From positions 482-64,481 of the forward strand of contig CAZBEI010000118.1 in the NCBI GenBank assembly GCA_964490895.1: 64,000 nucleotides of DNA, given 5' to 3'. Position 1 is the stretch's first letter. Every line of letters begins with the position of its first letter. Origin of the DNA: an uncultured Bdellovibrio sp. Its GTDB lineage: Bacteria > Bdellovibrionota > UBA1018. The notes under the pieces were generated by a model that saw only the letters and a program-made list of their open reading frames with translations, ran no database searches and was not told the origin of the DNA. Shown here piece after piece: positions 15,698 through 52,878 of this stretch. Made by a program: the position numbers and the translations under genes.

Positions 15698-15786
15698 GAT
15701 AAACTCAGTAATTCTAGGAAAACAGATACCACAACAACAAAAAATTTGTTATTGAGAAGCATCGACCCCACGGTGGGGCCACACAT

Positions 15787-15857
15787 GGGGCTATGGTGAA
15801 GGGGTATCACGCAGCAATCGCACTGCTGAGTCCCGAGTTCAATTCTCGGTAGCTCCA
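15787..15857 (+). tRNA. tRNA-Ala (anticodon CGC)
   Basis: Manual cloverleaf with 7-bp acceptor GGGGCTA/TAGCTCC including the G3:U70 Ala identity pair, D stem GTGA/TCAC, anticodon stem CAGCA/TGCTG with loop aTCGCac, T arm CCGAG-TTCAATT-CTCGG and discriminator A. CCA is not encoded. Confidence 0.8.
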
Positions 15858-15861
15858 AAAG

Positions 15862-17184
15862 TTAAATTTTCCAAAATGGATAGAACAATATTTTTTTGCT
15901 TTTGTTAAAATAAGGTGCACCTCCATAGAGCACCACTCCAAACGGGAGTTTCCATTTAGAAATGACACACTCGAGTAACTCTGTATTTTTTATTTCATTT
16001 AATTGATGCGTCTTCTTGACTTCTATGGGAACAAGTCGCTCCCCTAATTTAAATATAAAATCGATTTCACCGGGTAAAAAATCCAAGGAGTCATTTACAG
16101 CTTTATAGGCAAAGTTTTTGTAATAATAAATATTGGCTTTTAGAGGAAGTTTTTCCTGCAAAGCGTTGAGGCGCGAGTGCACATAGGCCTCCAGTCTATA
16201 TCCTGCTTCAGATTCCTTAAAATCCAAATGGGCTGTATAATAAGTCACTAGACTTGGGTCTATCCATGAATAAATTGCAAAATATGTTTTTTTAAGATTT
16301 TCATACTCTGCCAGGTAGGGCCTTTTTTTTATTAAGTACCCATGATTCAATAAGTGATCAATCACTTTGTCGACCCCATTGCGCTTAGAATTACGTAAAA
16401 CTTGATGGATCCCCTTATAGGTGAATTCTTTAGAATTCAAACTTGCCAAGTACTGTCTCACTTCGTCGTCTCTGGCTACTGTGGTTTCATAGTTTTCTGT
16501 AATGCCTCTTTCGGCTACCAGTTTGATCTCTTGGAGAGCGCGTTGCTCACCCTTTGCAAAAAAGGCCTTGGGCAGCCCTCCGTAGATCAAATACTGATCT
16601 AAAACAGGTACAATTTTCTGATCCCATTTTTCGGATTCAATCGATACCTCTTGCGGTGGAGTCCAGTCCGCTATGATCTTCTCAAATGGAGCCAACTCTT
16701 CTTGCAATGCTGAGGTGTTCATTATTTTCTTATGAACCAAAATTTCTTTCAAAGAAAAGGGTGTTAACGTCATGACTTCGGCTCGACGCTGAAGTCGGTT
16801 TTTTGCTTCAGTTTTTAAAAATGCAGGATGTGATCCTGAAACAATAAACGACACTTTAGCTTCGTCATAAGCAATCTTGACAGCATCAAAAATTTCCGGT
16901 TCTTTTTGGATCTCATCCACAAATAAGATCACCTTTTTTAGGCCACGAGAGTGAATTTCGTTCGAAATAAATCTGGTATTTTCTCTAATTTGTGACCTAA
17001 ACGCAACATCGTCACCTGTATATTGTAAAACATCAAAGCCTTTTTTCTCTAGTTTTTCTAAAAGTTTTGTAACGAGCGTTGTTTTTCCGCAGCCCACTAT
17101 TCCGGGTAATATAATTCCTGTAGGATGTTGGTCTAAAATCTTATTTTGAATTTGAAATAACAATTCGCGTTCTACAAAGTCCAT
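15862..17184 (-). CDS. AAA+ ATPase fused to a DUF4143 (PD-(D/E)xK-like) C-terminal domain, COG1373 family, paralog 1
   Basis: 440 aa with P-loop GIVGCGKTTLV, Walker B VILFVDEIQ and C-terminal EIDFIFKLGERLVPIEVKK (D...E-x-K). The stop codon is 4 nt downstream of the tRNA-Ala 3' end. Confidence 0.7.
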   Translation of the reverse strand: MDFVERELLFQIQNKILDQHPTGIILPGIVGCGKTTLVTKLLEKLEKKGFDVLQYTGDDVAFRSQIRENTRFISNEIHSRGLKKVILFVDEIQKEPEIFDAVKIAYDEAKVSFIVSGSHPAFLKTEAKNRLQRRAEVMTLTPFSLKEILVHKKIMNTSALQEELAPFEKIIADWTPPQEVSIESEKWDQKIVPVLDQYLIYGGLPKAFFAKGEQRALQEIKLVAERGITENYETTVARDDEVRQYLASLNSKEFTYKGIHQVLRNSKRNGVDKVIDHLLNHGYLIKKRPYLAEYENLKKTYFAIYSWIDPSLVTYYTAHLDFKESEAGYRLEAYVHSRLNALQEKLPLKANIYYYKNFAYKAVNDSLDFLPGEIDFIFKLGERLVPIEVKKTHQLNEIKNTELLECVISKWKLPFGVVLYGGAPYFNKSKKILFYPFWKI

Positions 17185-17260: not shown

Positions 17261-18142
17261 TTATCTAGGCACGAACCCACGCATCTTGGGGATTGTTTCG
17301 TGGCAATCCACAGGCGGGTAGTTAATAAACTCGAGGAGTTGGAGCCTCTCCTCTGCACCGGTCAAAACCAGTGGGGTTCCACCAGCTCTGGGTGCTGGGG
17401 CGTTTGCATTCACCTCAGTCTTTAACCCAGTCCAAAGGTCGATAAAATAAAGTTCAGTGTTCTGGGTATTATTTGTTTTGTCATTGATCACCCCAGCAAT
17501 TTGGACATTCATTTCCTGGATATCGTCGATGCAAATAGATTGAGTGGTTCGCGGATTTTGGTCACTATGTACAATGATAATAGAAAGACCAGGTCGGTTT
17601 GGATCTCTGCAGGGGATATCTGCCGCTCTGATCGAGTCTTGTACTGTGTTCCCAGCTACTGTATTCGCAGGGATATCAATCATTGCGTTGTTTAAGACGT
17701 TAAACTGACAACACAAAATAAAAACTTGGTCTATGGGAGGATTGGGGTTAAGTGCTGCTGGAGGCACTGTGCGTCTTTCTCTAAAAGCAAATCTGTCATT
17801 AAAGCAAACTCTCATGTCTCCTCTCAACACAATGGCTCCTTGTCCGGCAATTCGGTATGTGTTTAGATTATCTGGCGTTGCATCATTTGGTGGGTGAGGA
17901 GCTCCTGGTGGAAGTTGTGTAAACACTACTGTTTCCGCTCTCCTAAATGCATAATCAATCACTCCGTGGAGAGTGTCTTTGCCAAACTCAAAGCTCCCAA
18001 TATTTTCTGTGCTTTTGCTTAATTGCGAAACTTGCTTGAGTTGTTGAGTGGCAACAAGGGCTACAATAACTGCCAATCCCGATGCAATAATCACTTCGGC
18101 AATGGTAAATCCAGAAGTACCTAAGGCTTCTTTCTTTTTCAA
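17261..18142 (-). CDS. type IV pilin-like / pseudopilin protein with prepilin N-terminus
   Basis: 293 aa. The N-terminus GTSG|FTIAEVIIASGLAVIVALVA fits a class III signal with Gly-1, Phe+1, Glu+5 and a hydrophobic helix. Confidence 0.6.
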   Translation of the reverse strand: MKKKEALGTSGFTIAEVIIASGLAVIVALVATQQLKQVSQLSKSTENIGSFEFGKDTLHGVIDYAFRRAETVVFTQLPPGAPHPPNDATPDNLNTYRIAGQGAIVLRGDMRVCFNDRFAFRERRTVPPAALNPNPPIDQVFILCCQFNVLNNAMIDIPANTVAGNTVQDSIRAADIPCRDPNRPGLSIIIVHSDQNPRTTQSICIDDIQEMNVQIAGVINDKTNNTQNTELYFIDLWTGLKTEVNANAPAPRAGGTPLVLTGAEERLQLLEFINYPPVDCHETIPKMRGFVPR

Positions 18143-19263
18143 TGGATGACCACCTCTGAGTTATAAGCAGCTGGGACGGGATCAGGGATTGGTCTTACGT
18201 TGAGATCAGCATTTATAGGTCTATTTTGATCCCATGAATATTGAAAAGTCCTAATATTAACCGTAATAATATCCCCCAAATTATTTACTGCAGCCACAGC
18301 TGCAGCCGACTGGAAAGTAAAGCGAAGCTCACTCCGGATGGCTCGACCTGGCGGTGCGTCTGGTCCAAGTGCAGGAATATTTCCTGAACTCGGAAATAAG
18401 TTGTCGATAATGATTGTGTTTACAAAATTACCGACAGTGACTTCATCTAAAAAAATTCTGGGAATTTTCTGACCCAATCGAGATCCAAAATAAAATGGAC
18501 TTACAATCGGATAGGGGCTGGGAGCGGGGACTGGAGGCGGGTTGGGCACGCCGCTAAATAAAATTGTAAAGTTGTTAAAATCTAAGTTTCTTGCTAAATC
18601 GGAGTTAGTAAATCCAGCAAATCCTGGGTTTGCACCATTATGACAACTGATGCAATTTGCAAGTGGGTTGCCCATGATTGCTCGAATTTTTTGGTCGGGG
18701 GGAGGTTGAGGATTGGGTCCATCAAAAAAATCTTGATCCAGGTTTCCCCTCTGTCTTCCACCAGCGCGACTAGAAAGTGTCCAGGCCTGAATTCGATTTG
18801 CTAATAATCGCCACGCTCTCCTTTCAATAACATTGGGTGGCTGATGGAGATTAAAGGGTCCAACTGTAAGATTGATAGGATTAATTTCACATCGATGAGT
18901 TACAGGATTTAATCTAATATAAGGATGTAAGACTTTAATATTCCCCGGACCACCTCTGTCGGAGTCATCATTACAAGCAGTAGGAGGGTTCTGGATCGGC
19001 AGATATCCTCCCGGCAGCGGTGGGGGTAGATCTGCCTGGTGACACGGATCTTGGCACATCCAATATAGAATCGTGTCTTTAGAGGTCGCTTTTATCAGAT
19101 TCTGGATTGCAAAATTTTCACGGATGATCTCGGAGTGGCTTCGAGACATTTTCTGAAATTTTACGGTATGCGTGGTTAAAATCGAAAACGCCAGAGCTCC
19201 CACAATCAGGACAGTAGCCCCGATTAAAACCTCTACAATGGTAAACCCTCTCTTATTACTCAT
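18139..19263 (-). CDS. large type IV pilin-like / minor pilin-like protein
   Basis: 374 aa with N-terminus KRG|FTIVEVLIGATVLIVGALAF, a Pro/Asn/Gly-rich body and a CISCH (CxxCH) motif. It overlaps the downstream pilin-like gene by 4 nt. Confidence 0.6.
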   Translation of the reverse strand: MSNKRGFTIVEVLIGATVLIVGALAFSILTTHTVKFQKMSRSHSEIIRENFAIQNLIKATSKDTILYWMCQDPCHQADLPPPLPGGYLPIQNPPTACNDDSDRGGPGNIKVLHPYIRLNPVTHRCEINPINLTVGPFNLHQPPNVIERRAWRLLANRIQAWTLSSRAGGRQRGNLDQDFFDGPNPQPPPDQKIRAIMGNPLANCISCHNGANPGFAGFTNSDLARNLDFNNFTILFSGVPNPPPVPAPSPYPIVSPFYFGSRLGQKIPRIFLDEVTVGNFVNTIIIDNLFPSSGNIPALGPDAPPGRAIRSELRFTFQSAAAVAAVNNLGDIITVNIRTFQYSWDQNRPINADLNVRPIPDPVPAAYNSEVVIH

Positions 19264-19467
19264 TAAAAACCACTCACGTTTTTTTAAATTAAAATTACTT
19301 ATTAATGCCGCCCCATTTGCAGTATGGTATTATTTTAGTATAATATTATATAAAGGTTAAGTCTTTTTTTATAAGGGGTGGAATTAAATGAAATCACATC
19401 AAAAAGGCAGCGTGCTACTGATGGTCCTCGGCATCTTGGAAGTGGGCATTAGGGAGTTAAATAGGAT

Positions 19468-19893
19468 TCATGAAAGCACGTTAAACCCTTCTTTAATCGC
19501 CGCCCTTGCAAGTTGTTCATCAAATGTCACAAAATTGAGTCTGCTTGGGTGATCATCACAGGCCACTAAGGCTGCGGCGAGTTGAAGCGAATCAGAAGCC
19601 TGCAAAACATGTGCTCCTAAAAGTCGTTCAGCCTTTTTTTTAACTTGGGTGGTATGAGTGACCTCCATCCAAAGGCGGTCTAGTTTTTTTAGGTTTTTAA
19701 AACATCCCTTTAAAACCACTTCGGAAAGTTGTTTTGTCCTTTCTCTTCGATAAAGAGCAGAGAGGCATTCTACAGAAGTAAAACACCAAACCACAATTTT
19801 TTTAGTTTGTCCTAAGAGCTCAAGAGAGTGAGGGGTTCTTGTCTCTTCGACTAAAAGAGGAACAACAGCAGAGGAGTCCCAAAAGGTGATCAT
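19468..19893 (-). CDS. vapC: PIN-domain toxin (VapC-like)
   Basis: 141 aa with conserved acidic residues at FWDSSA, ASDSLQLAAA and FVTFDEQL, overlapping the upstream antitoxin by 4 nt. Confidence 0.65.
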   Translation of the reverse strand: MITFWDSSAVVPLLVEETRTPHSLELLGQTKKIVVWCFTSVECLSALYRRERTKQLSEVVLKGCFKNLKKLDRLWMEVTHTTQVKKKAERLLGAHVLQASDSLQLAAALVACDDHPSRLNFVTFDEQLARAAIKEGFNVLS

Positions 19894-20234
19894 CTCCCCT
19901 CTCTACGATCTTTTAAGAGCTGCTCTAAAACCCCAGCAGGGCCACTCCCACAGGAGATGTTTTTTTTAAGTTCATCTATCACAGCCCGATTTAACACCCC
20001 TTTTCCGCGTGAGATCATCCCCTTTGTCTCTAATTGCTGCAAATAGACTTCTTCTTCATTGTATAAAAATTTTTCGATCGGAGTAATTTCTGCAATGGGT
20101 GTGTTTCGTTCAAAAACACGTACAGTTTCGCCTTTTTTTACAAGGACAAGAAATTCGCTGAGGTGATTTTTTAGTTCTGCTATATTGGCCTTTCTCATAT
20201 AGCTATGATAGCTATATTTAGAGCTCGAAGTCAA
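19890..20234 (-). CDS. Phd/YefM-family antitoxin
   Basis: The segment ANIAELKNHLSEFLVLVKKGETVRVFERNTPIAEITPIE is Phd/YefM-like. The true start is probably the internal Met at about 20198. Confidence 0.55.
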   Translation of the reverse strand: MTSSSKYSYHSYMRKANIAELKNHLSEFLVLVKKGETVRVFERNTPIAEITPIEKFLYNEEEVYLQQLETKGMISRGKGVLNRAVIDELKKNISCGSGPAGVLEQLLKDRREGR

Positions 20235-20280
20235 TGGGAATTTCAGTCAGTCTGGCTGGAGATGCTGTTCCTTTTGGTGT

Positions 20281-20411
20281 TTAAATTAGGCAATAACATT
20301 AGCAGCTTAAAACATCATTTGACGAAAACGGTGCATTTATTTATTATATAACGATAGTTCAAGTGCTTTATTGGGGGACGTATGAAGTCAGGGGTGCTAA
20401 AAATAATAAAC
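20281..20411 (+). repeat. partial, diverged copy of the ~170-bp promoter-plus-start repeat (copy A0)
   Basis: Carries TTGACG-N17-TATTAT and ATG AAG TCA GGG GTG CTA AAA ATA ATA AAC (MKSGVLKIIN), matching the start of the 793-aa gene at 22670. The reading frame is cut after 10 codons by the MITE. Confidence 0.6.
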
Positions 20412-20988
20412 GTGACTGTTCAGCCTCATTCTTCAGGCTCGGTGTAAAAACTACGGCGGCCATTCCGGTGTGGGCCAGTTATTTTGAAATAAAATATAAA
20501 GAAACTCTTGGATGTTTTTCTGAAAGTATCTTTTAATACCCACAAGATCTCTTCCCCACTCCACAATTCGAGACCAAGCGAGATCATCCCAAAAGCGTTT
20601 TAGGGCTGGCTGCCCCTTCTTTGCTCCTGTCATCACTCGGGCAATGAGGCCTGTTCTTTTCTCTGCTTCTTAAAGAAAGGAAAATGCATCTGTTTTTCTT
20701 GTTTTTTCATTCGCCTGTCCCGGTTGTGTTGTATAGGATACGAGCAATGTTATTTCAACCCTATTTTTTTATCCAATGGTCTAATTATTTTATTTTAAAA
20801 ACATAGTAATTTTTCATTTTGTAAACTTTTGCAAACATTTATAAACTTTTTCACAGCTTTTTATGCTGTGCGAACACACATGCACTTGTAAGGCCTGAAA
20901 ATATCTTTTTTTTATAAGTCCACCCCGGGGGCCACCGGGGGTCTATCGCTTTTTAAACCAAGCCTGCAGAATGAGGCTGAACAGTCAC
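20412..20988. mobile_element. non-autonomous MITE-like element with ~40-bp imperfect terminal inverted repeats
   Basis: Left end GTGACTGTTCAGCCTCATTCTTCAGGCTCGGTGTAAAAAC, right end ...AAACCAAGCCTGCAGAATGAGGCTGAACAGTCAC as its inverted complement. Length is 577 bp, the only internal ORF is a 61-aa one without motifs, and there is a GC-rich palindromic core (CCCCGGGGGCCACCGGGGG). Confidence 0.6.
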
Positions 20989-21014
20989 GGTTTTTTTTAT
21001 TATTTTCAAGCGCT

Positions 21015-21184
21015 GGGCTCTCAATCGATACCATGAAAGAGGTCGATGAAAAATTAAAACACGTTCTTGATCTTAACTAATTAAGCAATAAAATAAACAA
21101 CCTAGGAGGATTGTTGACTGACTTAAGTTAGTTATTTATTATATATAAATATAGTTCAGATATTTTATTGGGGAACGTATGAGA
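21015..21184 (+). repeat. ~170-bp direct repeat copy A1 (flanks ATPase paralog 2 on one side)
   Basis: About 90% identical to 22511..22680, including TTGACT-N17-TATTAT and an ATG. Here the ATG opens only a 9-codon ORF. Confidence 0.7.
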
Positions 21185-21204
21185 GATGGCTATGTGGCTT
21201 TTGG

Positions 21205-22386
21205 CTAACTCCAATAACTCCACGGCAAAAGACAGACTCCCTGTTTCGGAAGATGGACGGTATTGACAGGGGCGAGAAGAACAGCCCGTTTGACTCCAAG
21301 AGCCTTCATAGCGCCTGTCAAGCTGCGCGCATGGTACTCCATTTGAGAAGGGGCAATTGTTTCGCTCATGATTTTTATCGGTATGTTTTGCCAAACAAGA
21401 TCAATCACAGGACCATGAATGCTTTTATAATAATTTTTACGCATCACAAACCTTTGGTACTCATTAAAACAAAAGATCTCGTTTAATAAATAATGCCTAG
21501 CAATAGAGAGACTGACTTCTGGTCCAGTTTTTATTGGGGAAAGATGGAATGCTAGCCCAGAATCTCCAAACATCCAATGGTCATTACCCACTCCAGGTTC
21601 CTGGACAGTAAATCTCCTGAGAAAAAAAATATTTTCAAGTGCCTGAATGTAACGTTTTGCTTTTCGCTTGTCACCTCTCACATAACTCAAGGAGGGATAA
21701 TCAGCGTTAGGAAGAGCTTTGGCTAGCATCTGAATTAACGAAAAACAATAATCAGGATCAAACCCCTTTCCGTAAGCACGCGCTGCATCGCGGACAATTG
21801 TTGTGTCAAGCCAGTTATTCCAATATTCCTTGCACATATTCTCGTCGCGAATAAAGGCAGGAACTGGGAGACCTCCTGATCTCATTTGCACAGACAAATC
21901 TTCAAACTTAAATCGTGGTGTCGAGGGAGACAGGAAGTGTGACTCATTTTTAATAGTTTTCTGAGATTGTTGATGGATTTCACCAAAACACATGGGGTAA
22001 AGATGCAACAAGCCAATTCTACCAGTTAATGATTCTCGAACACCTATTTTTTGTGAAAACGCAACTGATCCGGTCAAAAACCACTGGCCAGGGATTTTTT
22101 TTCTGTCTACCAGTGATTTAATCGAATCAAATAATAGGGGTGCTTTTTGAACTTCATCAAGTACGGTAGGGGATCCCTGGTGTCTACTTAGAAAAACGCG
22201 AGGTGCGGCTAGGGCTTCAGCTCTCATTTCTTCGTCATCAAAACTGAGATAGTTTTTAATCCCAATGCGATCTCTCAGCAAAGTAGATTTGCCAACCTGT
22301 CTCATCCCGAGTACTCCAACAATTGGCCAGAAACTAGCCATTTTTTTTATTTTTACCTCACTAAAACGAGGTCTTTGGTGTGGCAT
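21205..22386 (-). CDS. AAA+ ATPase with DUF4143-like domain, COG1373 family, paralog 2 (nuclease-like motif degenerate)
   Basis: 393 aa with P-loop GMRQVGKSTLL and Walker B TVLDEVQ. The C-terminal region VIDLVWQNIPIKIMSE lacks the E-x-K seen in the other three paralogs. Confidence 0.65.
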   Translation of the reverse strand: MPHQRPRFSEVKIKKMASFWPIVGVLGMRQVGKSTLLRDRIGIKNYLSFDDEEMRAEALAAPRVFLSRHQGSPTVLDEVQKAPLLFDSIKSLVDRKKIPGQWFLTGSVAFSQKIGVRESLTGRIGLLHLYPMCFGEIHQQSQKTIKNESHFLSPSTPRFKFEDLSVQMRSGGLPVPAFIRDENMCKEYWNNWLDTTIVRDAARAYGKGFDPDYCFSLIQMLAKALPNADYPSLSYVRGDKRKAKRYIQALENIFFLRRFTVQEPGVGNDHWMFGDSGLAFHLSPIKTGPEVSLSIARHYLLNEIFCFNEYQRFVMRKNYYKSIHGPVIDLVWQNIPIKIMSETIAPSQMEYHARSLTGAMKALGVKRAVLLAPVNTVHLPKQGVCLLPWSYWS

Positions 22387-22510
22387 AAGTAATATAAATA
22401 ATATGCACTGAGTTGAAAAAAAATGATAGCACTTTTTTAGACAATCACTCGGTTACACACCAGGGCTATTTATGCTTTAGAAAAGGCCCTTCTAAAAAAC
22501 CACATCATGC

Positions 22511-22680
22511 AGCTCTCAATCGATACCATGAAAGAGGTCGATGAAAAATTAAAACACGTTCTTGATCTTAACTAATTAGGCAATAAAATAAACAGCTTAG
22601 GAGGATTGTTGACTAATTTAAATTAGCTATTTATTATATATATAGTTCAGATATTTTATTGGGGGACGTATGAAATCAGG
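22511..22680 (+). repeat. ~170-bp direct repeat copy A2 (promoter, RBS and start of the fibrinogen-domain gene)
   Basis: Direct repeat of 21015..21184. It lies between the divergently oriented ATPase paralog 2 and the 793-aa gene. Confidence 0.7.
22609..22637 (+). promoter_or_regulatory. sigma-70-like promoter of the 793-aa gene
   Basis: TTGACT-17 nt-TATTAT about 30 nt upstream of the GGGGGA RBS and the ATG at 22670. The same architecture occurs in copies A1 (21114..21142) and A0. Confidence 0.5.
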
Positions 22681-25051
22681 GGCATTAAAAATAATAAATA
22701 TAATGACCAGAAACCACCGTGGGAATACCCTCATGCTTGCCCTCCTGTTTACGGGCGCAGCAAGCGTGATTGGCTTAGGTATATTGGCCGCTATTGAAAC
22801 AGGACGCAAGCAGCAGGGAATCCGGATTGAAGAGAGTAACCCAGCGGCATTTCTTTCCTTACTGACGGGTAAGACTATTGAGGACATTTCTAAAAATTAT
22901 TACTGCCCTCAAAAAAGCACCAATGAAACTATCACTTTTACTCAATTTTTTGATAAGCTGAGAACAGACGGAAAACTCAACTCTAGAGGCCATCTGTCTA
23001 TTCCTCTTTTAGGCAAGTCAGAATATCTCATTAAAACTCCCAATGGAGTAGTGAGATCAGAAATAGATCCAGCATCAGAGGTTGCACTAATAGGAGCTGG
23101 AACACCCAATGAGCAGCTGGTGATACAAATTACGGTATCACTCTGCAGGTATGCACAAGCTGCAGGAGTTGCATGTCCTCCTGCACTTATTCTCCCCTCA
23201 ACTGTTTATAAAGCTTATATTAATAACACGAAAATACTGGAGCCATGTGGGAGCGCATTGCCTACTCCAACTCCATTTCCTGCTTCTTTTGTATTTATTG
23301 ATTCTGCAACAAATCTGCCTGCGCAAAAAGACGGCGCAAATCATATCTTAGAAGTTGGGGAAAGATATTTTGTTTTAGCTTCGATTGGGAAACCACCAGG
23401 CACAAGTGTAAATTATATTGTGAATTTTTCTCCAAGCAGTGGACCCTACTTTCAGCTCACATCCACTGGAGCAACAGCTCTCGTAGATGCAAGCGGAAAA
23501 TTCAGAACTACAGATCTCCATTTTAATAGAAACGCAAATCCTAACCTCAATGTTCCTCCGGGTCCTTATATTGCAAGTGTTGGAATCGGGACAGACCCCG
23601 TCCTCACAACCCCTGTGGTCGTAGTTCAGCCTGCCTGTGTTAACACAAGAAAACCACAATCTTGTTTGCATCTATTAGAATTAGATCAGAGCAAAAAAAA
23701 TCAGGATGGAATTTATACTATCGACCCAAACCAAGATGGAAAAAATCTACCAGTTTATTGTGACATGACAACAGATGGAGGGGGGTGGACACTTTTTGCA
23801 AATAATAACAGTCCAGGTTTTCCTGGAGGATGTCTGAGTGGTTTAAACCCCACTTTAGCTCTTGGAACCGATAAACGGACTGTTAACGCTCTGGCCTCAA
23901 AACCACCAAACAGTGTTGCAAGAATGGTCATAAATGGAAGTGCATCTAACGGCCAACCCTTTTCCTTTGATGTAAAACAAAGTGGTCTAACAGGCGCATT
24001 TCAGCCCAATATGGGGTGCAATATACCTAGCGAAGGTAATGCTCTTTACCAAATTCCTAACTTTACTCAGGTTATTTCGCAATCAAATGCTCAGGTTAGT
24101 TCTGGAAGTAATCCACTGGGAGTGCGAGTGGACTCCGGGGGTACTGCCGATTTTCAAATTCTTGGAGGTAAAGGAATAAGAATTGGAACGGGATTTCCAC
24201 CCGTACTTCCCCCCCGAAAAGCAACGGGAATTCTTTGGATGCCACAGAGTAACCAAGCGCTTCCATATGCAAATCAAATGAATATCCGATGGTTATGTTA
24301 TAGCCCTCAAAATCTATGTCCGACACTCCATCCTGATACTGGAAATAGAGTGACTTCGATGCAGCTTTTTTACAGAGAAGATGTGGCTGATTTACCCGAG
24401 GATCCATGTATTCCTCCCGGAGCAGTTTTGTGTGAGCTAGCTCACGGAGGACCCGGCTCTCCTGGTGGGAGTGTTGCCTGTCCAGGCAGGAAGAAAATCT
24501 TAGGCGGTGGATTTAGATATTCGAGTGATGGGACTTTTCCGTATCAAAATGGTTGGGGAGCAACTGGTTACACAAGTGGAATACCCCGTGAAGCTTTTGC
24601 TATTTGCTGTAACCATGTGGGATCTCTTGATTTGAAGTCTGGACGACAGGTAAGCAATCTCTATCATAATGTAGCTTTTGCACCCATTCAGTGCGAAAGC
24701 GATGAAATCGCTGCGAGCGCAGGGGGGATTAGTTCTTCTGGTGGATCTGTGTCTTGCTCTCCTGATATGAACAATATTTCGAAATTTAATTGTAATATGG
24801 TAGCAATTCCAAACGACCTTTTTCTGTATGCGATGTGCTATAAGAAGCCTCCAATTCCGTCTAAATTTGAATGGATTAAATCTTCTGGTTCTGTTGCTAC
24901 ATGTAAATCAGGAACTAAACTTATTTCTGGCGGGTTTTCTTGCAGTACAGGAGTTTTTGGTGTTGGCTATGCTATTCCAAACTTAATCAACAACACCTAT
25001 TCCGTAAGCTGTGCTGGATCAACATATGCACTCTGTGTGGACGAAAATTAA
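22670..25051 (+). CDS. large secreted/anchored protein with a fibrinogen-related domain and duplicated Cys-rich C-terminal modules, probable adhesin/lectin
   Basis: 793 aa with a hydrophobic N-terminal anchor or signal. DGIYTIDPNQDGKNLPVYCDMTTDGGGWTLFANNN matches the fibrinogen C-terminal domain hallmark (VYCDM-TDGGGWTV). Two C-terminal repeats follow the pattern C.G.K.L.GGF...C. Confidence 0.7.
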   Translation: MKSGALKIINIMTRNHRGNTLMLALLFTGAASVIGLGILAAIETGRKQQGIRIEESNPAAFLSLLTGKTIEDISKNYYCPQKSTNETITFTQFFDKLRTDGKLNSRGHLSIPLLGKSEYLIKTPNGVVRSEIDPASEVALIGAGTPNEQLVIQITVSLCRYAQAAGVACPPALILPSTVYKAYINNTKILEPCGSALPTPTPFPASFVFIDSATNLPAQKDGANHILEVGERYFVLASIGKPPGTSVNYIVNFSPSSGPYFQLTSTGATALVDASGKFRTTDLHFNRNANPNLNVPPGPYIASVGIGTDPVLTTPVVVVQPACVNTRKPQSCLHLLELDQSKKNQDGIYTIDPNQDGKNLPVYCDMTTDGGGWTLFANNNSPGFPGGCLSGLNPTLALGTDKRTVNALASKPPNSVARMVINGSASNGQPFSFDVKQSGLTGAFQPNMGCNIPSEGNALYQIPNFTQVISQSNAQVSSGSNPLGVRVDSGGTADFQILGGKGIRIGTGFPPVLPPRKATGILWMPQSNQALPYANQMNIRWLCYSPQNLCPTLHPDTGNRVTSMQLFYREDVADLPEDPCIPPGAVLCELAHGGPGSPGGSVACPGRKKILGGGFRYSSDGTFPYQNGWGATGYTSGIPREAFAICCNHVGSLDLKSGRQVSNLYHNVAFAPIQCESDEIAASAGGISSSGGSVSCSPDMNNISKFNCNMVAIPNDLFLYAMCYKKPPIPSKFEWIKSSGSVATCKSGTKLISGGFSCSTGVFGVGYAIPNLINNTYSVSCAGSTYALCVDEN

Positions 25052-25121
25052 TCATGTTACTAGGAGTAAAAGTTTGAAAGTTGTGTAGAGCCAGGTTTTT
25101 TTTAAAATAAGGAGCTTATAA

Positions 25122-25523
25122 ATGAAAAAATATAGTTTTAATAATAGACAGCTTGTCCTAGTTTATGCCATTTTTTTGATGCTCAATCTTTTTATTAACA
25201 GTTTTTCGTACAGTGATGTTTCTCAAGTTTCTAATGTAATACCGAATAATGACATTGTGGTCCTTTGTGCAAAGGATCAAACAATGACACCAACGAAGTG
25301 TTTAGAAAGCTCTAAGCCCAGTTATACACAAGTGGGGTGTCAGGATTTAGCAAATGGTTCTTGTTCGGAAGTCGACACCAATATAAAATGTTTTCTTAAA
25401 AGCAGTAATTGCAAAGCTGTTCAAGAAAACAATAGAACTTGTCCAAATGAGTTTAGACTTGTAGATGCAATTGAAAATGTAACAAAATATTCTGTCTTTG
25501 TTGAACTCTGTATTAAAAACTAA
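25122..25523 (+). CDS. small secreted cysteine-rich protein (10 Cys)
   Basis: 133 aa with a signal peptide, a good RBS (AGGAG) and tight linkage to the fibrinogen-domain gene. Confidence 0.5.
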   Translation: MKKYSFNNRQLVLVYAIFLMLNLFINSFSYSDVSQVSNVIPNNDIVVLCAKDQTMTPTKCLESSKPSYTQVGCQDLANGSCSEVDTNIKCFLKSSNCKAVQENNRTCPNEFRLVDAIENVTKYSVFVELCIKN

Positions 25524-25527
25524 TATG

Positions 25528-25558
25528 CCTACTCCATCCTCACCAAAGGCTCCGGAAA
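25528..25558. repeat. 30-bp direct repeat, copy 1 (CCTACTCCATCCTCACCAAAGGCTCCGGAAA)
   Basis: Matches 26867..26897 at 28 of 30 positions. On the minus strand it lies in frame immediately after the ATPase paralog 3 stop and would encode SKFPEPLVRME*. Confidence 0.7.
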
Positions 25559-25564
25559 CTTGCT

Positions 25565-26782
25565 CTATATAAGAGCCTGTAAAAATTTCCAAGCTGGCAG
25601 AACCCGTATCCCTCCATTTTTATAGTCGCCATCTGAGTTGAGAACAACCTGGTAGCTTTCTTTAATTTCTAGTCGTGTATTAAAATAGATAAGTTGTGGA
25701 GAAATTGCCGTATCACTCACTTTTGCCTCAACAGTGAACCAAGGTTTGCCGTCACAGAGAACCAAAAAATCTACCTCTCTTTTTTCTTTGTCTCTTAAGT
25801 AACAAAGCTCCATTTTATAGCCGGCATAATCAGTATAGAAATGGCAAAACTTCAAAAGATGGCTTGCGACGAGATTTTCAAAACGAGCGCCTGGATTAGA
25901 AATGATGGCCCAATCCCAAAGATACATTTTGGGTTCCTTTTTAAGAGAGCGGGTTTTTTTAACTGCAAAGGGTCTCATTCGATACAAAAAATAAAGTCTC
26001 TCTAATATGTCAATCCAATGTGAAATGGCTTTGTGCGAAGTGTCCAAATCCTCTCTTAAGGAATTAATTGACAGTGGGGAACCGGCTCGAGAGGGTAAAA
26101 TATCACATAACGTTTCAATCCCAGATAAGTCAGGAAGATTTTCTAGATCTCGAATGTCTTCTTTAAAAAAACGGTCTAATCTTTCATTCTGCCAACGCCT
26201 CAACTTACGTTGACTTTTCTTTAAAAAAGGCTCTGGAAAACCGCCAAACTCTATTAAGTCTGATAAAGTAGAAATGCTTTCATTTTTTTTACTTAAATCT
26301 TTCGGAATCTGTAGTGGAGCAAATGGTACTATTTCCTTTTCGCCCGGTAGAGAGAGCCCGAGAGCCTCTGCTAAAGTAAAAGGGTGCATCCGATAGAGGT
26401 GGTATCTTCCCTGCATAGAGTCTCCTCCTTTGCGATACACGTCTAATCTTGCGCTTCCTGTCACTAAAAATTTTCTATCGTCTAGGTGTTTATCATAAAT
26501 ACCTTTGACGAAATTTTTCCATTTTTTGTATTTGTGAATTTCGTCAAAAATGATGACCTCGGCATCTGACTTCCAAAGTGACTTTAGAATTCTTTTTCGG
26601 TCTTCTCTGTTGTCCCAATTCAAATAATCCACTTGACTTGGGGAGAACAAATTTTTTGAAAAAAAGGTTTTTCCAACTTGTCTAGGACCTGCTAAAAAGA
26701 CCATCTTTTCTTTTAAATCCTCTAAAACTGGCTTTGATAAATATCTTTCCAATGGGCAATGTCCTTTCTCAAGTAAGCTCAA
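25565..26782 (-). CDS. AAA+ ATPase fused to a DUF4143 (PD-(D/E)xK-like) domain, COG1373 family, paralog 3
   Basis: 405 aa with P-loop GPRQVGKTFF, Walker B IIFDEIH and C-terminal EVDFLVLCDGKPWFTVEAKVS (D...E-x-K). Confidence 0.7.
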   Translation of the reverse strand: MSLLEKGHCPLERYLSKPVLEDLKEKMVFLAGPRQVGKTFFSKNLFSPSQVDYLNWDNREDRKRILKSLWKSDAEVIIFDEIHKYKKWKNFVKGIYDKHLDDRKFLVTGSARLDVYRKGGDSMQGRYHLYRMHPFTLAEALGLSLPGEKEIVPFAPLQIPKDLSKKNESISTLSDLIEFGGFPEPFLKKSQRKLRRWQNERLDRFFKEDIRDLENLPDLSGIETLCDILPSRAGSPLSINSLREDLDTSHKAISHWIDILERLYFLYRMRPFAVKKTRSLKKEPKMYLWDWAIISNPGARFENLVASHLLKFCHFYTDYAGYKMELCYLRDKEKREVDFLVLCDGKPWFTVEAKVSDTAISPQLIYFNTRLEIKESYQVVLNSDGDYKNGGIRVLPAWKFLQALI

Positions 26783-26823
26783 AGATAGGATACGACTTTT
26801 TTAGCCTATAGGCAAAATTATTC

Positions 26824-26858
26824 ATGACTTTTTTATCTAGTTGGATAAAAAAGTCATA
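26824..26858. terminator. perfect 14-bp stem hairpin (ATGACTTTTTTATC-tagttgg-GATAAAAAAGTCAT), probable bidirectional terminator or cassette-end structure
   Basis: Perfect inverted repeat with T/A runs, located between the peptidase stop (26868) and the ATPase paralog 3 start (26782). Confidence 0.5.
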
Positions 26859-26866
26859 GTCTGACC

Positions 26867-26897
26867 CCTACTCCATCCTCACCAAGGGCCCCGGAAA
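26867..26897. repeat. 30-bp direct repeat, copy 2 (CCTACTCCATCCTCACCAAGGGCCCCGGAAA)
   Basis: Encodes the C-terminal FPGPLVRME* of the C39-like peptidase and is a direct repeat of 25528..25558. Confidence 0.7.
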
Positions 26898-27512
26898 GGC
26901 ACCGAGCCCTTTGGCTCCCTTTATAAACACTCCCAAATGAGAATACCTCCAGAGTTTTCCGTGCCGGTCTTCGTAATCATGCCAGCGCTCTAAAAATTCG
27001 TCTTGCGGCAGATAGACGTACCCATGTGGCAACGAAGGATCCATCGTATAAATATACGTTTCGTCCATGGCGATCAAGACGACATAATGGCCCTCCTCCC
27101 AGGTTTCGCTCCAAGGCTTTTGAGGCTTCGACTCATCCCGCCAAGCTTGCAATGCTAAGATCACGGTTTCGCCTCGCAAAAGTGCTAAGCGCAAATCCGA
27201 AAGCTCCAGATTTTCTTTCATCTCTGCTTTTAGCCCATAATGCTTGGCTCCACTCAGCAGTTTTTGTGGTTCCGTGCCATCTTTTTTAGTTGTTTTGAGG
27301 AGAGAGTAGAGTTTTGTCTCAGGCCCACTGTAAACTCCCCAGTAATTCAAAACTCCAAGCAGCGCAGCAGCTCCACAGCTGTATTCGCGAGCTTGTCTAG
27401 TGATCGGTACGGGCAAGTGGTTTTTTGGCAAGAGTGGTTCTTGTGTGCCCACTTGGGCAAAACTATTTTGAATTCCAAGTAAAACACCTAGAAGCAACGC
27501 TATTTTTATCAA
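26868..27512 (-). CDS. secreted papain-like cysteine peptidase, C39-like
   Basis: 214 aa with a signal peptide, catalytic-Cys context QAREYSCGAAALLGVLNYWG and His region EEGHYVVLIAMDE. Confidence 0.6.
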   Translation of the reverse strand: MIKIALLLGVLLGIQNSFAQVGTQEPLLPKNHLPVPITRQAREYSCGAAALLGVLNYWGVYSGPETKLYSLLKTTKKDGTEPQKLLSGAKHYGLKAEMKENLELSDLRLALLRGETVILALQAWRDESKPQKPWSETWEEGHYVVLIAMDETYIYTMDPSLPHGYVYLPQDEFLERWHDYEDRHGKLWRYSHLGVFIKGAKGLGAFPGPLVRME

Positions 27513-37916: not shown

Positions 37917-37978
37917 CGTAGGCAATAAATGGATTGTCGTAGGCAATAAATGAATTGACGTAGGCAATAAATGGATAT
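37911..37978 (+). repeat. 3.2 x 21-nt tandem repeat GGATTGACGTAGGCAATAAAT in the lepA-lepB junction
   Basis: Units at 37911, 37932 and 37953 with a partial fourth. The first unit contains the lepA stop and the last overlaps the lepB ATG (37971). Each unit carries TTGACG. Confidence 0.8.
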
Positions 37979-51714: not shown

Positions 51715-52878
51715 ATGGTCGACCGACTCTTTCGGGGCACAGGCTCAAACAGTTTTTTTATTTTTGGACCAAGGGGTGCTGGAAAATCCTACTGGCTGAA
51801 AAATAAATTTGCAAATAGGAGTGACGTTTTTTGGCTAGACCTGTTAGACGATGCCACTGAGGAGGCCTATTCTCAAAAACCAGGGCTACTGCGAGAAAAG
51901 CTACTTAAAAAGCCGTATCCTCACGTGGTCATCGACGAAGTGCAAAAAATTCCAAAGCTGTTGGACATCGTACATCTGTGTATTGAAAATCTAGCTACAA
52001 AGAGAACCCAGTTTATCATGACAGGCTCAAGCTCTCGCAAGCTTAAGCGAGGTGGGGCAAATTTGCTGGCTGGGCGGGCATTTCTTTATTTCATGCACCC
52101 GTACTCAGCAAGAGAACTGGGAGTAGATTTTGATCTCTCATCTGCTTTGTGCTACGGCATGCTTCCCAAGGTTCATGAGCTCGGAACCCCCGAAGATAAA
52201 AAAGAGTTCCTGAAGTCGTATGTCAGAAACTACTTAAAAGAGGAGATACGGATTGAACAGCTTGTTCGAAAACTAGATCCATTTCGGAGATTTCTCGAAG
52301 TTTCAGCGCAGTGCAATGGCAAGATTATCAATTTCAGCAACATTGCCAGAGATGTGGGCGTAGACGATAAGACGGTTGAGAATTACTACTCCATCTTAGA
52401 AGATACTTTGATTGGATTTTTCTTGCCTGCTTTTCACCGATCGATTCGTAAACAGCAGCATCAAGCGCCAAAGTTTTACTATTTTGATACTGGGGTGAAA
52501 AAAACTCTTGAAAACACACAAGACGTTCTTGTTGTCCCTGGTACCTATGAGTATGGCAATGCATTCGAACATTTTATTTTGTTAGAAGTCATGAAACTTA
52601 ATGAGTACTCACGGAAAGATTATAGATTTTACTACCTGCGTACGAAAGCTGGTGTCGAAATTGATTTGGTCATCGAAAGACCAGGAATGCCCTATGCATT
52701 AGTGGAGATCAAATCCTCAAATAGAGTTCAAGATCGAGATTTAAATGCGCTGCTCAGTTTTTCGAAGAACTTTAAAAAACCAGATCTTTTTTGCTGGTGC
52801 AATGAAAAAACAGGCCGCATTTCTAAGGGTGTGACTCTACTCAATTGGGCAGAAGGCATCAAAGAAGTGGGTTTGTAG
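51715..52878 (+). CDS. AAA+ ATPase fused to a DUF4143 (PD-(D/E)xK-like) domain, COG1373 family, paralog 4
   Basis: 387 aa with P-loop GPRGAGKSYWL, Walker B VVIDEVQ and C-terminal GVEIDLVIERPGMPYALVEIKSS. Confidence 0.7.
   Translation: MVDRLFRGTGSNSFFIFGPRGAGKSYWLKNKFANRSDVFWLDLLDDATEEAYSQKPGLLREKLLKKPYPHVVIDEVQKIPKLLDIVHLCIENLATKRTQFIMTGSSSRKLKRGGANLLAGRAFLYFMHPYSARELGVDFDLSSALCYGMLPKVHELGTPEDKKEFLKSYVRNYLKEEIRIEQLVRKLDPFRRFLEVSAQCNGKIINFSNIARDVGVDDKTVENYYSILEDTLIGFFLPAFHRSIRKQQHQAPKFYYFDTGVKKTLENTQDVLVVPGTYEYGNAFEHFILLEVMKLNEYSRKDYRFYYLRTKAGVEIDLVIERPGMPYALVEIKSSNRVQDRDLNALLSFSKNFKKPDLFCWCNEKTGRISKGVTLLNWAEGIKEVGL

What the first reader, a model, noticed from the sequence alone, without database searches (positions are those of the whole stretch)
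20281..22680. A ~170-bp promoter-plus-start module present in three copies; two flank ATPase paralog 2 and a third truncated copy is disrupted by a MITE
Copies A1 (21015-21184) and A2 (22511-22680) are about 90% identical direct repeats bracketing ATPase paralog 2. Each contains TTGACT-N17-TATTAT, an RBS and an ATG. A2 drives the 793-aa fibrinogen-domain gene (MKSGALKIINI...). A1's ATG opens only 9 codons. A0 (20281-20411) is more diverged but encodes MKSGVLKIIN, the same N-terminus, before the reading frame is cut by the MITE left end at 20412. The locus therefore records repeated duplication of the 5' end of the adhesin-like gene, insertion of an ATPase cassette between two copies, and transposon disruption of a third copy.
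Basis: seen in the sequence. Interest (0 to 1): 0.65.

Follow-up and report, generated by a model that had tools for sequence, protein, structure and literature searches.

The report
Direct repeats bracketing an inserted ATPase gene
The repeated "promoter-plus-start" module is real, but it is best read as the junction duplication left when a single-gene candidate-defence ATPase cassette landed just inside the 5' end of a secreted-protein gene, a pattern that recurs at a second ATPase in the same window and around 7-9% of related ATPase genes in other genomes.

Summary
A1 (21017-21182) and A2 (22512-22673) are 92.8% identical over 166 columns and bracket ATPase 2 exactly. A0 (20284-20411) is an older partial copy that ends at an inverted-repeat element (20412-20989).

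ATPase 3 in the same window is bracketed the same way, by a 31-nt repeat (25528-25558 and 26867-26897) that is the last 10 codons plus stop of the neighbouring C39 peptidase gene. Of 129 homologous ATPase genes from other genomes, 12 (about 9 independent loci) have flanking direct repeats of 23-132 nt. Controls gave 1 of 199 and 1 of 81, and that last one is a transposase. One repeat is the 3' part of a tRNA gene; two have a recombinase gene just beyond the repeat.

ATPase 2 orthologues (55-77% identity) sit in five different neighbourhoods. The whole 19264-26867 segment splits a C39-pilin operon that is contiguous in two relatives.

My reading is that these AAA_14/DUF4143 (PADLOC PDC-S01) genes travel as minimal cassettes without an integrase. 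Their insertion leaves target-derived repeats that resemble attL/attR. A2 keeps the fibrinogen-like gene expressed; A1 is a by-product pointing antisense into the ATPase. The insertion mechanism is not resolved, and interest is moderate.

The parts
20284..20411 (+). A0: older, partial copy of the module. It has a promoter-like TTGACG-17-TATTAT at 20319-20347, an RBS, an ATG at 20382 and 10 codons (MKSGVLKIIN). It lacks the first 62 nt of A1/A2.
   Evidence: Identity to A2 is 88% over 26 nt and 85% over 73 nt.
20412..20989 (.). Non-coding element of 578 bp bounded by inverted repeats (GTGACTGTTCAGCCTCATTC...). It is MITE-like. No target duplication could be identified.
   Evidence: I1: 53-nt arms, 87% complementary. 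One search shows a second miniature copy at 51299-51393. One search finds no transposase domain in its small ORFs.
20990..21016 (.). 27-nt spacer between the right arm of the inverted-repeat element and A1.
21017..21182 (+). A1: left junction repeat. It is the full module up to ATGA, with the promoter-like site at 21114-21142 pointing antisense into ATPase 2. Its ATG opens only 9 codons.
21183..22511 (-). ATPase 2 cassette of 1329 bp. It holds the gene 21205-22386 (393 aa, AAA_14, PADLOC PDC-S01), 22 nt after the stop and 125 nt upstream of the start.
   Evidence: Pfam. PADLOC, (E 2e-45). Orthologues of 55-77% identity in five other contexts.
22512..22673 (+). A2: right junction repeat and the working upstream region of the fibrinogen-like gene. 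Promoter-like site at 22609-22637, RBS, ATG at 22670.
   Evidence: At the 4 sites where A0 is informative, A2 keeps the state shared with A0 (read).
22670..25051 (+). 793-aa secreted protein with a fibrinogen-like YCDxxxxGGGW domain. The public gene call is 772 aa, starting at Met22.
   Evidence: Pfam PF00147. One search shows no close homologue apart from itself.
25528..25558 (.). 31-nt direct repeat, distal copy: a duplicate of the C39 gene's last 10 codons, stop codon and 1 nt.
   Evidence: 29/31 identical, E 8e-9. Reproduced in an independent assembly, L001.
25559..26866 (-). ATPase 3 cassette of 1308 bp. It holds the gene 25565-26782 (AAA_14 + DUF4143, PDC-S01), 6 nt after the stop and 84 nt upstream.
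26867..26897 (.). 31-nt direct repeat, proximal copy: the real 3' end of the C39 peptidase gene (26868-27512, minus strand).
19264..26867 (.). 7.6-kb accessory segment that separates the C39 gene from the pilin-like genes. Those genes directly follow C39 in two related genomes.
   Evidence: The L164/L165 gene order is C39, then a pilin-like gene (39-40% identity to 18139-19263), then a 304-aa gene (33% identity to 17261-18142).
19468..20234 (-). Phd/YefM antitoxin and PIN toxin pair, divergent from A0.
   Evidence: Both hits fall just under Pfam's cut-offs.
15862..17184 (-). ATPase 1 (AAA_14, PDC-S01). Its stop codon is 3 nt from tRNA-Ala (15786-15858). No flanking repeat was found.
51715..52878 (+). 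ATPase 4 (AAA_14 + DUF4143, PDC-S01), 320 nt from a miniature copy of the inverted-repeat element at 51308-51393. No flanking repeat was found.

Best explanation
**What the module is.** It is the native upstream region of the fibrinogen-like gene: the tail of a short upstream ORF, a sigma-70-type promoter, an RBS and the start codon.

**What happened (inferred).** A 1.3-kb cassette carrying one AAA_14/DUF4143 ATPase gene (PADLOC candidate defence gene PDC-S01), with its own roughly 60-nt promoter region, was inserted right after the first four bases (ATGA) of the coding sequence. The event left, or brought, a second copy of the 166 nt upstream of that point.

**What each copy does now (inferred).** A2 stays joined to the intact gene and drives it. 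A1 is left behind on the far side of the cassette. It is decaying, and its promoter points antisense into the ATPase gene. A0, next to the inverted-repeat element, looks like the scar of an earlier event of the same kind at codon 10.

**Most likely route.** The cassette probably entered as a circular or otherwise transferred segment that carried a copy of the target. It would have recombined with the chromosome at that copy, either through a site-specific recombinase supplied in trans or through homologous (Campbell-type) recombination. Such an event gives attL/attR-like imperfect direct repeats.

**Shown versus inferred.**
- Shown: the repeats, their exact bracketing of two ATPase genes, the enrichment of such brackets in this family, and the different neighbourhoods of the orthologues.
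- Inferred: the order of events, the recombination route, and promoter activity.
For: 1. A1 and A2 bracket ATPase 2 exactly, with 22 nt and 125 nt of slack.
2. ATPase 3 is bracketed the same way by a 31-nt, 29/31 repeat that is the C39 gene's last 10 codons plus stop. An independent assembly of run ERR4904393 reproduces both copies at 100% identity.
3. In the whole window these are the only kb-spaced non-coding direct repeats.
4. In 129 homologous ATPase genes fetched from genome and metagenome collections, 12 have flanking direct repeats with E below 1e-4. These are about 9 independent loci, one of which (L077) belongs to a local three-copy repeat family and may be a different phenomenon. The repeats are 23-132 nt long and 88-100% identical. 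Shifted windows gave 1 of 199 and other genes of similar size gave 1 of 81; that one is an rve transposase. Fisher p is 8e-5, or 1e-3 after removing duplicate loci. Inverted repeats are not enriched, at 1 of 129.
5. The repeats are target-derived, as at integration sites. L099's is the 3' part of a tRNA (Rfam 27.7 bits, E 0.004). L071's is the 3' end of the upstream ORF. L119's lies inside a gene. L128 has a tyrosine integrase 460 nt beyond the repeat, and L013 has a serine-recombinase fragment next to it. The L128 structure recurs in four separate assemblies.
6. ATPase 2 orthologues at 77, 72, 67, 63 and 55% identity lie in five unrelated neighbourhoods. Only about 60 nt upstream (GTGCTATCA motif) plus the ORF are conserved. 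L119, L124, L127, L128 and L147 share one ATPase unit at 82-95% DNA identity with sharp breaks in the flanks.
7. The A1/A2 identity is two-part: 66/66, then 9 differences in 100 columns. Uniform decay would give this with probability about 0.01 (my calculation). That fits a crossover or conversion tract next to a diverged arm.
8. The locus lies in a 7.6-kb segment that splits a C39-pilin operon that is contiguous in two relatives.
Against: - No integrase or recombinase was found among the window ORFs scanned (most of those of at least 100 aa), so the enzyme is hypothetical here.
- No empty site or single-copy state of this locus was found. The fibrinogen-like gene has no close relative among 5.8 billion proteins, and the module pattern is absent from 185,579 species genomes.
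- ATPase 1 and ATPase 4, and about 90% of homologues elsewhere, have no detectable flanking repeat.
- A0 does not fit a simple scheme. It lacks the first 62 nt, and the inverted-repeat element does not fill the whole A0-A1 interval.
- One repeat-positive locus, L077, belongs to a three-copy local repeat family and may be a different phenomenon.
- Nearly all repeat-positive loci come from metagenome assemblies.
- The A1-ATPase-A2 stretch itself has no independent assembly.
Confidence: 0.55

Rival explanations
1. The 5' module of the adhesin-like gene duplicated on its own by tandem or segmental duplication. Later, an unrelated ATPase cassette happened to insert between two copies, and a transposon hit a third.
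For: Three copies with graded divergence exist: A0 is 82-85% identical to the others and A1/A2 are 93% identical. Small tandem duplications do occur in this genome, for example the 21-nt x3.2 array at 37909-37976.
Against: The cassette fills the A1-A2 interval exactly, which would need the insertion to land precisely at a duplication joint. The same bracketing at ATPase 3, with an unrelated 31-nt repeat, and at 12 of 129 homologues elsewhere would have to be coincidence. No tandem module pair without an insert is seen anywhere in the window.
Confidence: 0.15
2. Transposition-like insertion at widely staggered cuts. The cassette, possibly through the ATPase's own PD-(D/E)xK domain, is inserted at nicks 25-170 nt apart, and gap repair creates a true target-site duplication of variable length.
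For: In both window cases the left copy ends at the insertion point and the right copy begins at the start of the duplication. Some repeats elsewhere are perfect: L063 has 45/45 and L051 has 25/25. DUF4143 is classed in the PD-(D/E)XK nuclease superfamily (PMC3424549).
Against: - No conserved cassette ends or terminal repeats were found.
- The four ATPases in the window are only 19-25% identical, so there is no sign of copy-and-paste within the genome.
- ATPase 2 has IPIK where the others have VE[VAI]K, so its nuclease motif may be degenerate.
- The Pfam hits point to STAND/ORC-like NTPases, which are typical of defence sensors.
- No bacterial transposon known to me makes duplications this long and variable.
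- The tRNA-derived repeat and the neighbouring recombinases point to site-specific integration.
Confidence: 0.12
3. The module is a dispersed regulatory cassette (promoter plus leader) that sits in front of several paralogous secreted-protein genes. The three copies are remnants of a paralogue array.
For: A0 keeps 10 in-frame codons of the same N-terminus. The promoter hexamers are intact in all three copies.
Against: There is no further copy in 64 kb and no match to the core pattern in 185,579 species genomes. No paralogue of the fibrinogen-like protein exists in the window or in the protein database. A1 has no gene behind it.
Confidence: 0.06
4. Assembly artefact in a metagenome-assembled genome: a repeat-induced mis-join or strain chimera.
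For: The source is a single 65-kb NCBI contig with no second record of this stretch. The 66-nt identical block is long enough to confuse a short-k-mer assembler.
Against: The copies differ at 8 sites plus an indel, so they are not a collapsed or duplicated identical repeat. The ATPase 3 bracket is reproduced at 100% in an independent assembly. The L128-type bracket recurs in four samples.
Confidence: 0.05

Closest known systems
CIMEs (cis-mobilizable elements) and small integrative islets left by site-specific accretion (Guedon et al. 2017, PMC5704250)
   Same: A short cargo segment with no integration genes, bounded by imperfect direct repeats that include the end of a target gene or tRNA. 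Tandem arrangements occur at one site (A0-insert-A1-insert-A2). In L128 and L013, a recombinase-bearing neighbour sits just beyond a repeat.
   Different: CIMEs are defined as decayed ICEs or IMEs whose att sites are recognised by a related element's integrase. Here no integrase is in the window and no cognate element is known. The units are only 1.3-2 kb with the same single gene family each time, which is hard to explain by random decay. The repeats are also up to 166 nt long.
PADLOC PDC-S01 / COG1373 (AAA_14 + DUF4143) candidate defence ATPases
   Same: All four ATPases in the window match the PDC-S01 models (E 2e-25 to 7e-60). The domain order is a P-loop ATPase followed by a PD-(D/E)xK-type domain. 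PMC12988326 reports the family as the fourth most common defence candidate in prokaryotes, with many transfers between domains.
   Different: In the papers I found, nothing describes these genes as repeat-bounded single-gene cassettes. Defence activity is still unvalidated (PMC12988326). ATPase 2's subfamily lacks a Pfam DUF4143 hit.
Phage or island integration into the 3' end of tRNA and protein genes, where the element carries a replacement copy of the target's end
   Same: The repeats consist of a gene's 3' end (C39, L071), an internal gene segment with an alternative 3' part (L119), or a tRNA 3' part (L099). The copies are similar but not identical. There is an identical core next to a diverged arm (66+100 nt here, 25+16 nt in L128).
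   Different: In the main case the duplicated part is a promoter plus start codon (a 5' end), not a 3' end, and the element encodes no integrase.
MITEs (for the 20412-20989 element only)
   Same: Short (578 bp), non-coding, with terminal inverted repeats and at least one more copy in the genome.
   Different: No target-site duplication and no parent IS could be identified. The second copy is only the two arms, back to back, with one arm truncated.

Membership tests
PADLOC PDC-S01 / Pfam AAA_14 + DUF4143 (COG1373) | N-terminal AAA_14 P-loop ATPase domain | tested here: met
   Pfam PF13173: E 9e-25 (ATPase 2), 3e-26 (ATPase 3), 3e-21 (ATPase 1), 1e-20 (ATPase 4).
PADLOC PDC-S01 / Pfam AAA_14 + DUF4143 (COG1373) | C-terminal DUF4143 (PD-(D/E)xK-type) domain | tested here: inconclusive
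   Met for ATPase 3 (E 3e-24) and ATPase 4 (E 2e-34). No Pfam hit for ATPase 1 or ATPase 2. In the alignment, ATPase 2 has D...IPIK where the others have D...VE[VAI]K.
PADLOC PDC-S01 / Pfam AAA_14 + DUF4143 (COG1373) | Match to the PDC-S01 profile models | tested here: met
   Best E-values are 2e-25, 2e-45, 1e-47 and 7e-60 for ATPases 1-4.
PADLOC PDC-S01 / Pfam AAA_14 + DUF4143 (COG1373) | Anti-phage activity | not testable with these tools
CIME / integrase-less integrative islet | Bounded by direct repeats (attL/attR) derived from the target | tested here: met
   166-nt A1/A2 and the 31-nt C39-end repeat. The same is seen in 12 of 129 homologous loci.
CIME / integrase-less integrative islet | No integration or transfer genes inside the element | tested here: met
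   The repeat-bounded units of 1.3-2.0 kb hold no integration or transfer gene. Most hold only the ATPase ORF. L119's unit also carries an 88-aa ORF on the opposite strand, with no Pfam hit.
CIME / integrase-less integrative islet | att sites recognised by the integrase of a related ICE, IME or prophage; origin by decay of such an element | not testable with these tools
   No recombinase among the window ORFs scanned. Recombinase genes lie next to the repeats only in L128 and L013. The recurrence of the same single gene argues against random decay.
CIME / integrase-less integrative islet | Excision to a circle and an empty site in relatives | not tested
   No relative with this locus was found. 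Reads of the source sample could not be searched.
Transposon with target-site duplication | Conserved element termini (inverted repeats or defined ends) | tested here: not met
   There are no shared ends among cassettes. Homology between copies in different contexts begins at the promoter and stops at the stop codon or terminator. Flanking inverted repeats occur in only 1 of 129.
Transposon with target-site duplication | Short target duplication of fixed length | tested here: not met
   The repeats range from 23 to 166 nt and are mostly imperfect.
MITE (element 20412-20989) | Terminal inverted repeats, small size, no transposase | tested here: met
   53-nt arms at 87% complementarity, 578 bp, and no transposase domain in its ORFs.
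MITE (element 20412-20989) | Flanking target-site duplication and multiple copies | tested here: inconclusive
   One more, truncated copy lies at 51308-51393. The flanks are A-rich on the left and T-rich on the right, with no direct duplication. The rest of the genome is not available.
Integron gene cassette | IntI integrase with attI, and cassettes ending in attC hairpin sites | tested here: not met
   No integrase was found among the ORFs scanned in 64 kb. The repeats are target gene sequence (C39 codons, promoter), not a shared attC-type site. attC structure itself was not modelled.
Diversity-generating retroelement (TR/VR repeat pair) | Reverse transcriptase nearby and adenine-specific mismatches between the repeats | tested here: not met
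   No RT domain was found in the ORFs scanned around the locus. The 8 A1/A2 substitutions are all transitions in both directions (A/G and C/T), not adenine-specific.

The most novel reading that the evidence does not exclude
AAA_14/DUF4143 (PDC-S01) genes may be autonomous single-gene mobile elements. On this reading, the ATPase-nuclease itself promotes insertion of its own gene into gene ends, tRNA genes and promoters, producing long target duplications of variable length. That would be a previously unrecognised class of selfish element, and it would explain why this 'defence candidate' is among the most abundant and most transferred genes in prokaryotes.
Probability: 0.07. Interest if true: 0.85.

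Novelty: new variant of a known kind. Interest (0 to 1): 0.45.

Why it matters
**For this locus.** It replaces a multi-step duplication story with nested insertions. It also explains how a gene hit in its second codon can stay expressed: the junction repeat restores promoter, RBS and start. The leftover promoter copy (A1) faces the ATPase gene and could damp its expression by convergent transcription.

**More generally.** PDC-S01 is reported as the fourth most common defence candidate in prokaryotes (PMC12988326), yet how it spreads has not been described in the papers I could find. About 7-9% of sampled copies sit between target-derived direct repeats, including a tRNA-derived one, and close orthologues occupy unrelated neighbourhoods. 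That makes 'minimal integrative cassette without an integrase' a concrete hypothesis that can be tested in complete genomes and in the laboratory.

Tried and rejected
1. **MazF/PemK tail.** I suspected that the first 62 nt of the module (…LSIDTMKEVDEKLKHVLDLN*) are the tail of a MazF/PemK toxin gene. Pfam, PDB and plasmid tblastn gave nothing. An alignment to a recalled EndoA sequence was no better than 792 of 5000 shuffles. Not supported.
2. **Known RNA elements.** No Rfam family matches in 15-28 kb apart from tRNA-Ala. None matches the repeats of nine other loci.
3. **More copies or relatives of the module.** There were no plasmid matches and no hits to the core pattern in genome contigs. 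No exact-protein contigs were found for the fibrinogen-like gene, ATPase 2 or PIN.
4. **A second tRNA-Ala fragment marking an island end.** None was found with up to 3 mismatches.
5. **Flanking repeats at ATPase 1 and ATPase 4.** None was found.
6. **Empty site for ATPase 3.** The closest C39 homologues are only 62% identical. They give gene-order evidence, not a nucleotide-level empty site.
7. **A third copy of the C39-end repeat next to the pilin-like gene's start.** Only an 8-10 nt resemblance (GTGAG…ATGAGTA) was seen, which is too weak to claim.
8. **TAGGCAATAAA as a regulator site.** The motif is shared by the module and the 21-nt repeat at 37909-37976, and it is enriched (8 matches against 1.8 expected). 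However, three of the matches are one tandem array that includes the start codon of the following signal-peptidase (S26) gene, so I left it as an aside.
9. **Integron and DGR readings.** Both were rejected; see the membership tests.


Full report
**1. Observation**

The region was read directly and compared with itself.
- A1 (21017-21182) and A2 (22512-22673) align over 166 columns at 92.8% identity, with one 4-nt indel (E 3e-67).
- The first 66 nt are identical. The remaining 100 columns hold eight substitutions, all transitions, plus the indel.
- Homology begins at GCTCTCAATCG and ends immediately after ATGA.
- A0 is more diverged. 20284-20309 matches 22574-22599 at 88%, and 20338-20410 matches 22628-22698 at 85%.
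- A0 lacks the first 62 nt of the module but continues 27 nt further into the coding sequence than A1. It encodes MKSGVLKIIN before the left arm of an inverted-repeat element at 20412.
- The consensus scan finds TTGAC[G/T]-17 nt-TATTAT in all three copies.
- A1's ATG opens nine codons.

**2. The parts**

- *The gene between A1 and A2.* 21205-22386 (minus strand) is an intact 393-aa AAA_14 ATPase. It matches PADLOC's candidate defence family PDC-S01 at E 2e-45.
- *Other ATPases.* Three more members of the family lie in the window: 15862-17184, 25565-26782 and 51715-52878. They are only 19-25% identical to one another, so they are not recent paralogues.
- *The gene behind A2.* It encodes a 793-aa protein with a fibrinogen-like domain. 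Its only close database relative is its own record, which is called from Met22.
- *The inverted-repeat element.* The 578-bp element at 20412-20989 has 53-nt complementary ends and no transposase domain. A miniature second copy lies at 51308-51393. No target duplication could be defined.
- *The first 62 nt of the module.* They read as the tail of an ORF (…LSIDTMKEVDEKLKHVLDLN*). My guess that this is a MazF-type toxin remnant failed every test.
- *Structured RNA.* No Rfam family matches the region.

**3. A second bracket in the same window**

A repeat search over 14-30 kb showed that ATPase 3 is also bracketed by a direct repeat, at 25528-25558 and 26867-26897 (31 nt, 29/31 identical).
- The proximal copy is the true end of the C39 peptidase gene: FPGPLVRME, the stop codon and one more base.
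- The distal copy lies 6 nt beyond the ATPase stop codon.
- In the whole 64 kb, the module copies and this pair are the only kb-spaced non-coding direct repeats.
- A contig assembled independently from run ERR4904393 is 100% identical over 24885-27322 and contains both copies.

**4. The pattern in other genomes**

ATPase 2 has a graded series of orthologues. Those at 77, 72, 67, 63 and 55% identity lie in five unrelated neighbourhoods, often squeezed between housekeeping genes. Only about 60 nt upstream, with a GTGCTATCA motif, plus the ORF are conserved. Nothing is conserved past the stop codon.

I fetched 160 loci with an alignment of this subfamily. In each, I compared the 640 nt on either side of the ATPase ORF.

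| Test set | With flanking direct repeat (E < 1e-4) |
|---|---|
| ATPase ORFs with enough flank | 12 of 129 (about 9 independent loci) |
| Windows shifted by 2.2 kb | 1 of 199 |
| Other ORFs of 330-480 aa | 1 of 81 (an rve-family transposase) |
| ATPase ORFs, inverted repeats instead | 1 of 129 |

- The repeats around the ATPase ORFs are 23-132 nt long and 88-100% identical.
- Fisher p is 8e-5 for all ORFs against the shifted windows, and 1e-3 after collapsing duplicate loci.
- One locus (L051, L128, L134, L136) shows the same structure in four assemblies from different samples.
- A unit shared at 82-95% DNA identity by L119, L124, L127, L128 and L147 has sharp homology breaks in different flanks.

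**5. What the repeats are made of**

- In L099 the repeat is the 3' part of a tRNA gene (Rfam tRNA model positions 10-63, 27.7 bits, E 0.004).
- In L071 it is the 3' end of the upstream ORF.
- In L119 it is a 128-nt segment inside a gene, and the unit supplies an alternative downstream part.
- In L063 it is an AT-rich stretch abutting the ATPase start.
- In L128 a tyrosine integrase gene lies 460 nt beyond the distal repeat. In L013 a serine-recombinase fragment follows it directly.
- L077's repeats belong to a three-copy local family and should be treated with caution.

These features are those of integration junctions. [quoted passage not shown]

**6. The wider locus**

In two related metagenome-assembled genomes, the C39 gene (62% identity) is followed, with overlapping stop and start codons, by a pilin-like gene and a 304-aa gene. 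These are homologous to window genes 18139-19263 (39-40% identity, E 1e-43 to 9e-54) and 17261-18142 (33% identity, E 2e-35).
- It follows that 19264-26867 is an accessory segment that split this operon. It holds the Phd/PIN pair, A0, the inverted-repeat element, A1, ATPase 2, A2, the fibrinogen-like gene, a 133-aa gene and ATPase 3.
- ATPase 3 sits at one edge of the segment. ATPase 1 sits at the far end of the operon, 3 nt from tRNA-Ala.
- No recombinase was found among the window ORFs scanned, which were most of those of at least 100 aa.

**7. Explanation**

The simplest account is nested insertions.
- The module is the native upstream region of the fibrinogen-like gene.
- The ATPase 2 cassette (21183-22511) entered right after ATGA.
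- The left repeat ends at the insertion point and the right repeat starts where the duplicated stretch begins. The same geometry holds at ATPase 3.
- A2 keeps the state shared with A0 at all four sites where A0 is informative. A1 is therefore the copy that has drifted or that came from elsewhere.
- The two-part identity (66/66, then 9 differences in 100 columns) would arise by uniform decay with probability about 0.01 by my calculation. It fits better with a crossover or conversion tract next to a diverged arm. L128 shows a similar core-plus-arm pattern (25 identical nt, then 16 partly matching).
- I therefore favour integration of a transferred cassette that already carried a copy of the target, by a recombinase acting in trans or by homologous recombination, over a staggered-cut duplication. 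The data do not decide between these.
- A0 and the inverted-repeat element look like an older event at codon 10, but the details do not fit any simple scheme.

Two functional consequences follow; both are inferences.
- A2 preserves expression of the fibrinogen-like gene.
- A1's intact promoter hexamers face the 3' end of ATPase 2 and could drive antisense transcription.

**8. Rivals**

- *Self-transposition by the ATPase-nuclease.* There are no conserved ends and no within-genome copies. The NTPase hits resemble STAND-type proteins. ATPase 2 has IPIK where the others have VE[VAI]K.
- *A dispersed regulatory module.* This lacks further copies or paralogues.
- *An assembly artefact.* This is unlikely because the copies differ, but it was not tested directly for A1/A2.

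**9. Novelty and score**

Integrative islets without integrases, and defence genes carried on mobile islands, are both known kinds. I found no description of PDC-S01 genes as repeat-bounded single-gene cassettes. A 5' promoter-plus-start stretch serving as the duplicated junction is also unusual. I rate this a new variant of a known kind, with interest 0.45. The limits are a single genome for the focal locus, no empty site, no enzyme, and mostly metagenomic comparators.

Noticed in passing
window 19264-26867, compared with L164 3722-6434 and L165 658-3048: The 7.6 kb that holds the finding splits an operon (C39 peptidase, then a pilin-like N_methyl protein, then a protein of about 300 aa). That operon is contiguous, with overlapping stop and start codons, in two related metagenome-assembled genomes.
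   Followed up: yes
window 25528-25558 and 26867-26897: A 31-nt direct repeat (29/31 identical) brackets ATPase 3. One copy is the last 10 codons plus stop of the C39 gene. An independent Logan contig (L001) reproduces both copies.
   Followed up: yes
window 15786-15858 and 15862-17184: tRNA-Ala(CGC) ends 3 nt from the stop codon of ATPase 1, which lies on the opposite strand. No second tRNA fragment and no flanking repeat were found.
   Followed up: partly
window 51299-51450 and 51715-52878: A miniature copy of the inverted-repeat element (two arms back to back, the right arm truncated) is followed by what reads as the C-terminal half of an XRE-type HTH gene (…GISKQHLCDIEKGRKLVSPERAA…, read by eye). 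A fourth PDC-S01 ATPase lies 320 nt downstream.
   Followed up: partly
window 22613-22626 (A2) and 21118-21131 (A1): A perfect 14-nt palindrome, CTAATTTAAATTAG, lies in the promoter spacer of A2. In A1 it is CTGACTTAAGTTAG: two of the changes are at mirrored positions and keep the symmetry. A0 has no such palindrome. It could be an operator or it could be chance.
   Followed up: no
window 37909-37976: A 21-nt tandem repeat (x3.2, TGGATTGACGTAGGCAATAAA) spans the junction between the LepA-type GTPase gene and the following signal-peptidase (S26) gene, and repeats the sequence around that gene's start codon. It shares the 11-mer TAGGCAATAAA with the module (8 matches with at most 1 mismatch in the window, against 1.8 expected).
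   Followed up: partly
window 26824-26857: A 34-nt hairpin-forming palindrome (ATGACTTTTTTATC…GATAAAAAAGTCAT) lies just inside the ATPase 3 cassette, next to the C39-end repeat. A related motif, CTAAAAAAGT…TATC, occurs upstream of ATPase 2 at 22417-22445.
   Followed up: no
L124 3633-3795 and 5338-5500: One homologous ATPase gene is flanked by 163-nt inverted repeats (94% identical) instead of direct ones. This was the only such case among 129.
   Followed up: no
L077 1431-2184, 3694-4248 and 6621-6966: Three copies of a 0.5-0.7-kb repeat (80-95% identical) separate the ATPase gene and an aminotransferase gene in a Dialister MAG. No Rfam or Pfam match was found.
   Followed up: partly
L119 and L127 (shared left flank), L124: One ATPase unit (95% identical) has the same left junction in L119 and L127 but different right flanks. 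In L124, sequence matching L119's right flank lies to the left of the unit. This suggests repeated rearrangement at a sigma-like gene.
   Followed up: partly
window 2411-3304 and 3606-4439: Two tandem flagellin paralogues show 69% DNA identity over 187 nt. This is the only coding direct repeat in the window.
   Followed up: no
window 45228-46148, 55497-57901: DprA, a T2SS/T4P-type ATPase and a secretin are present. The organism may be able to take up DNA, which bears on how the cassettes arrive.
   Followed up: no
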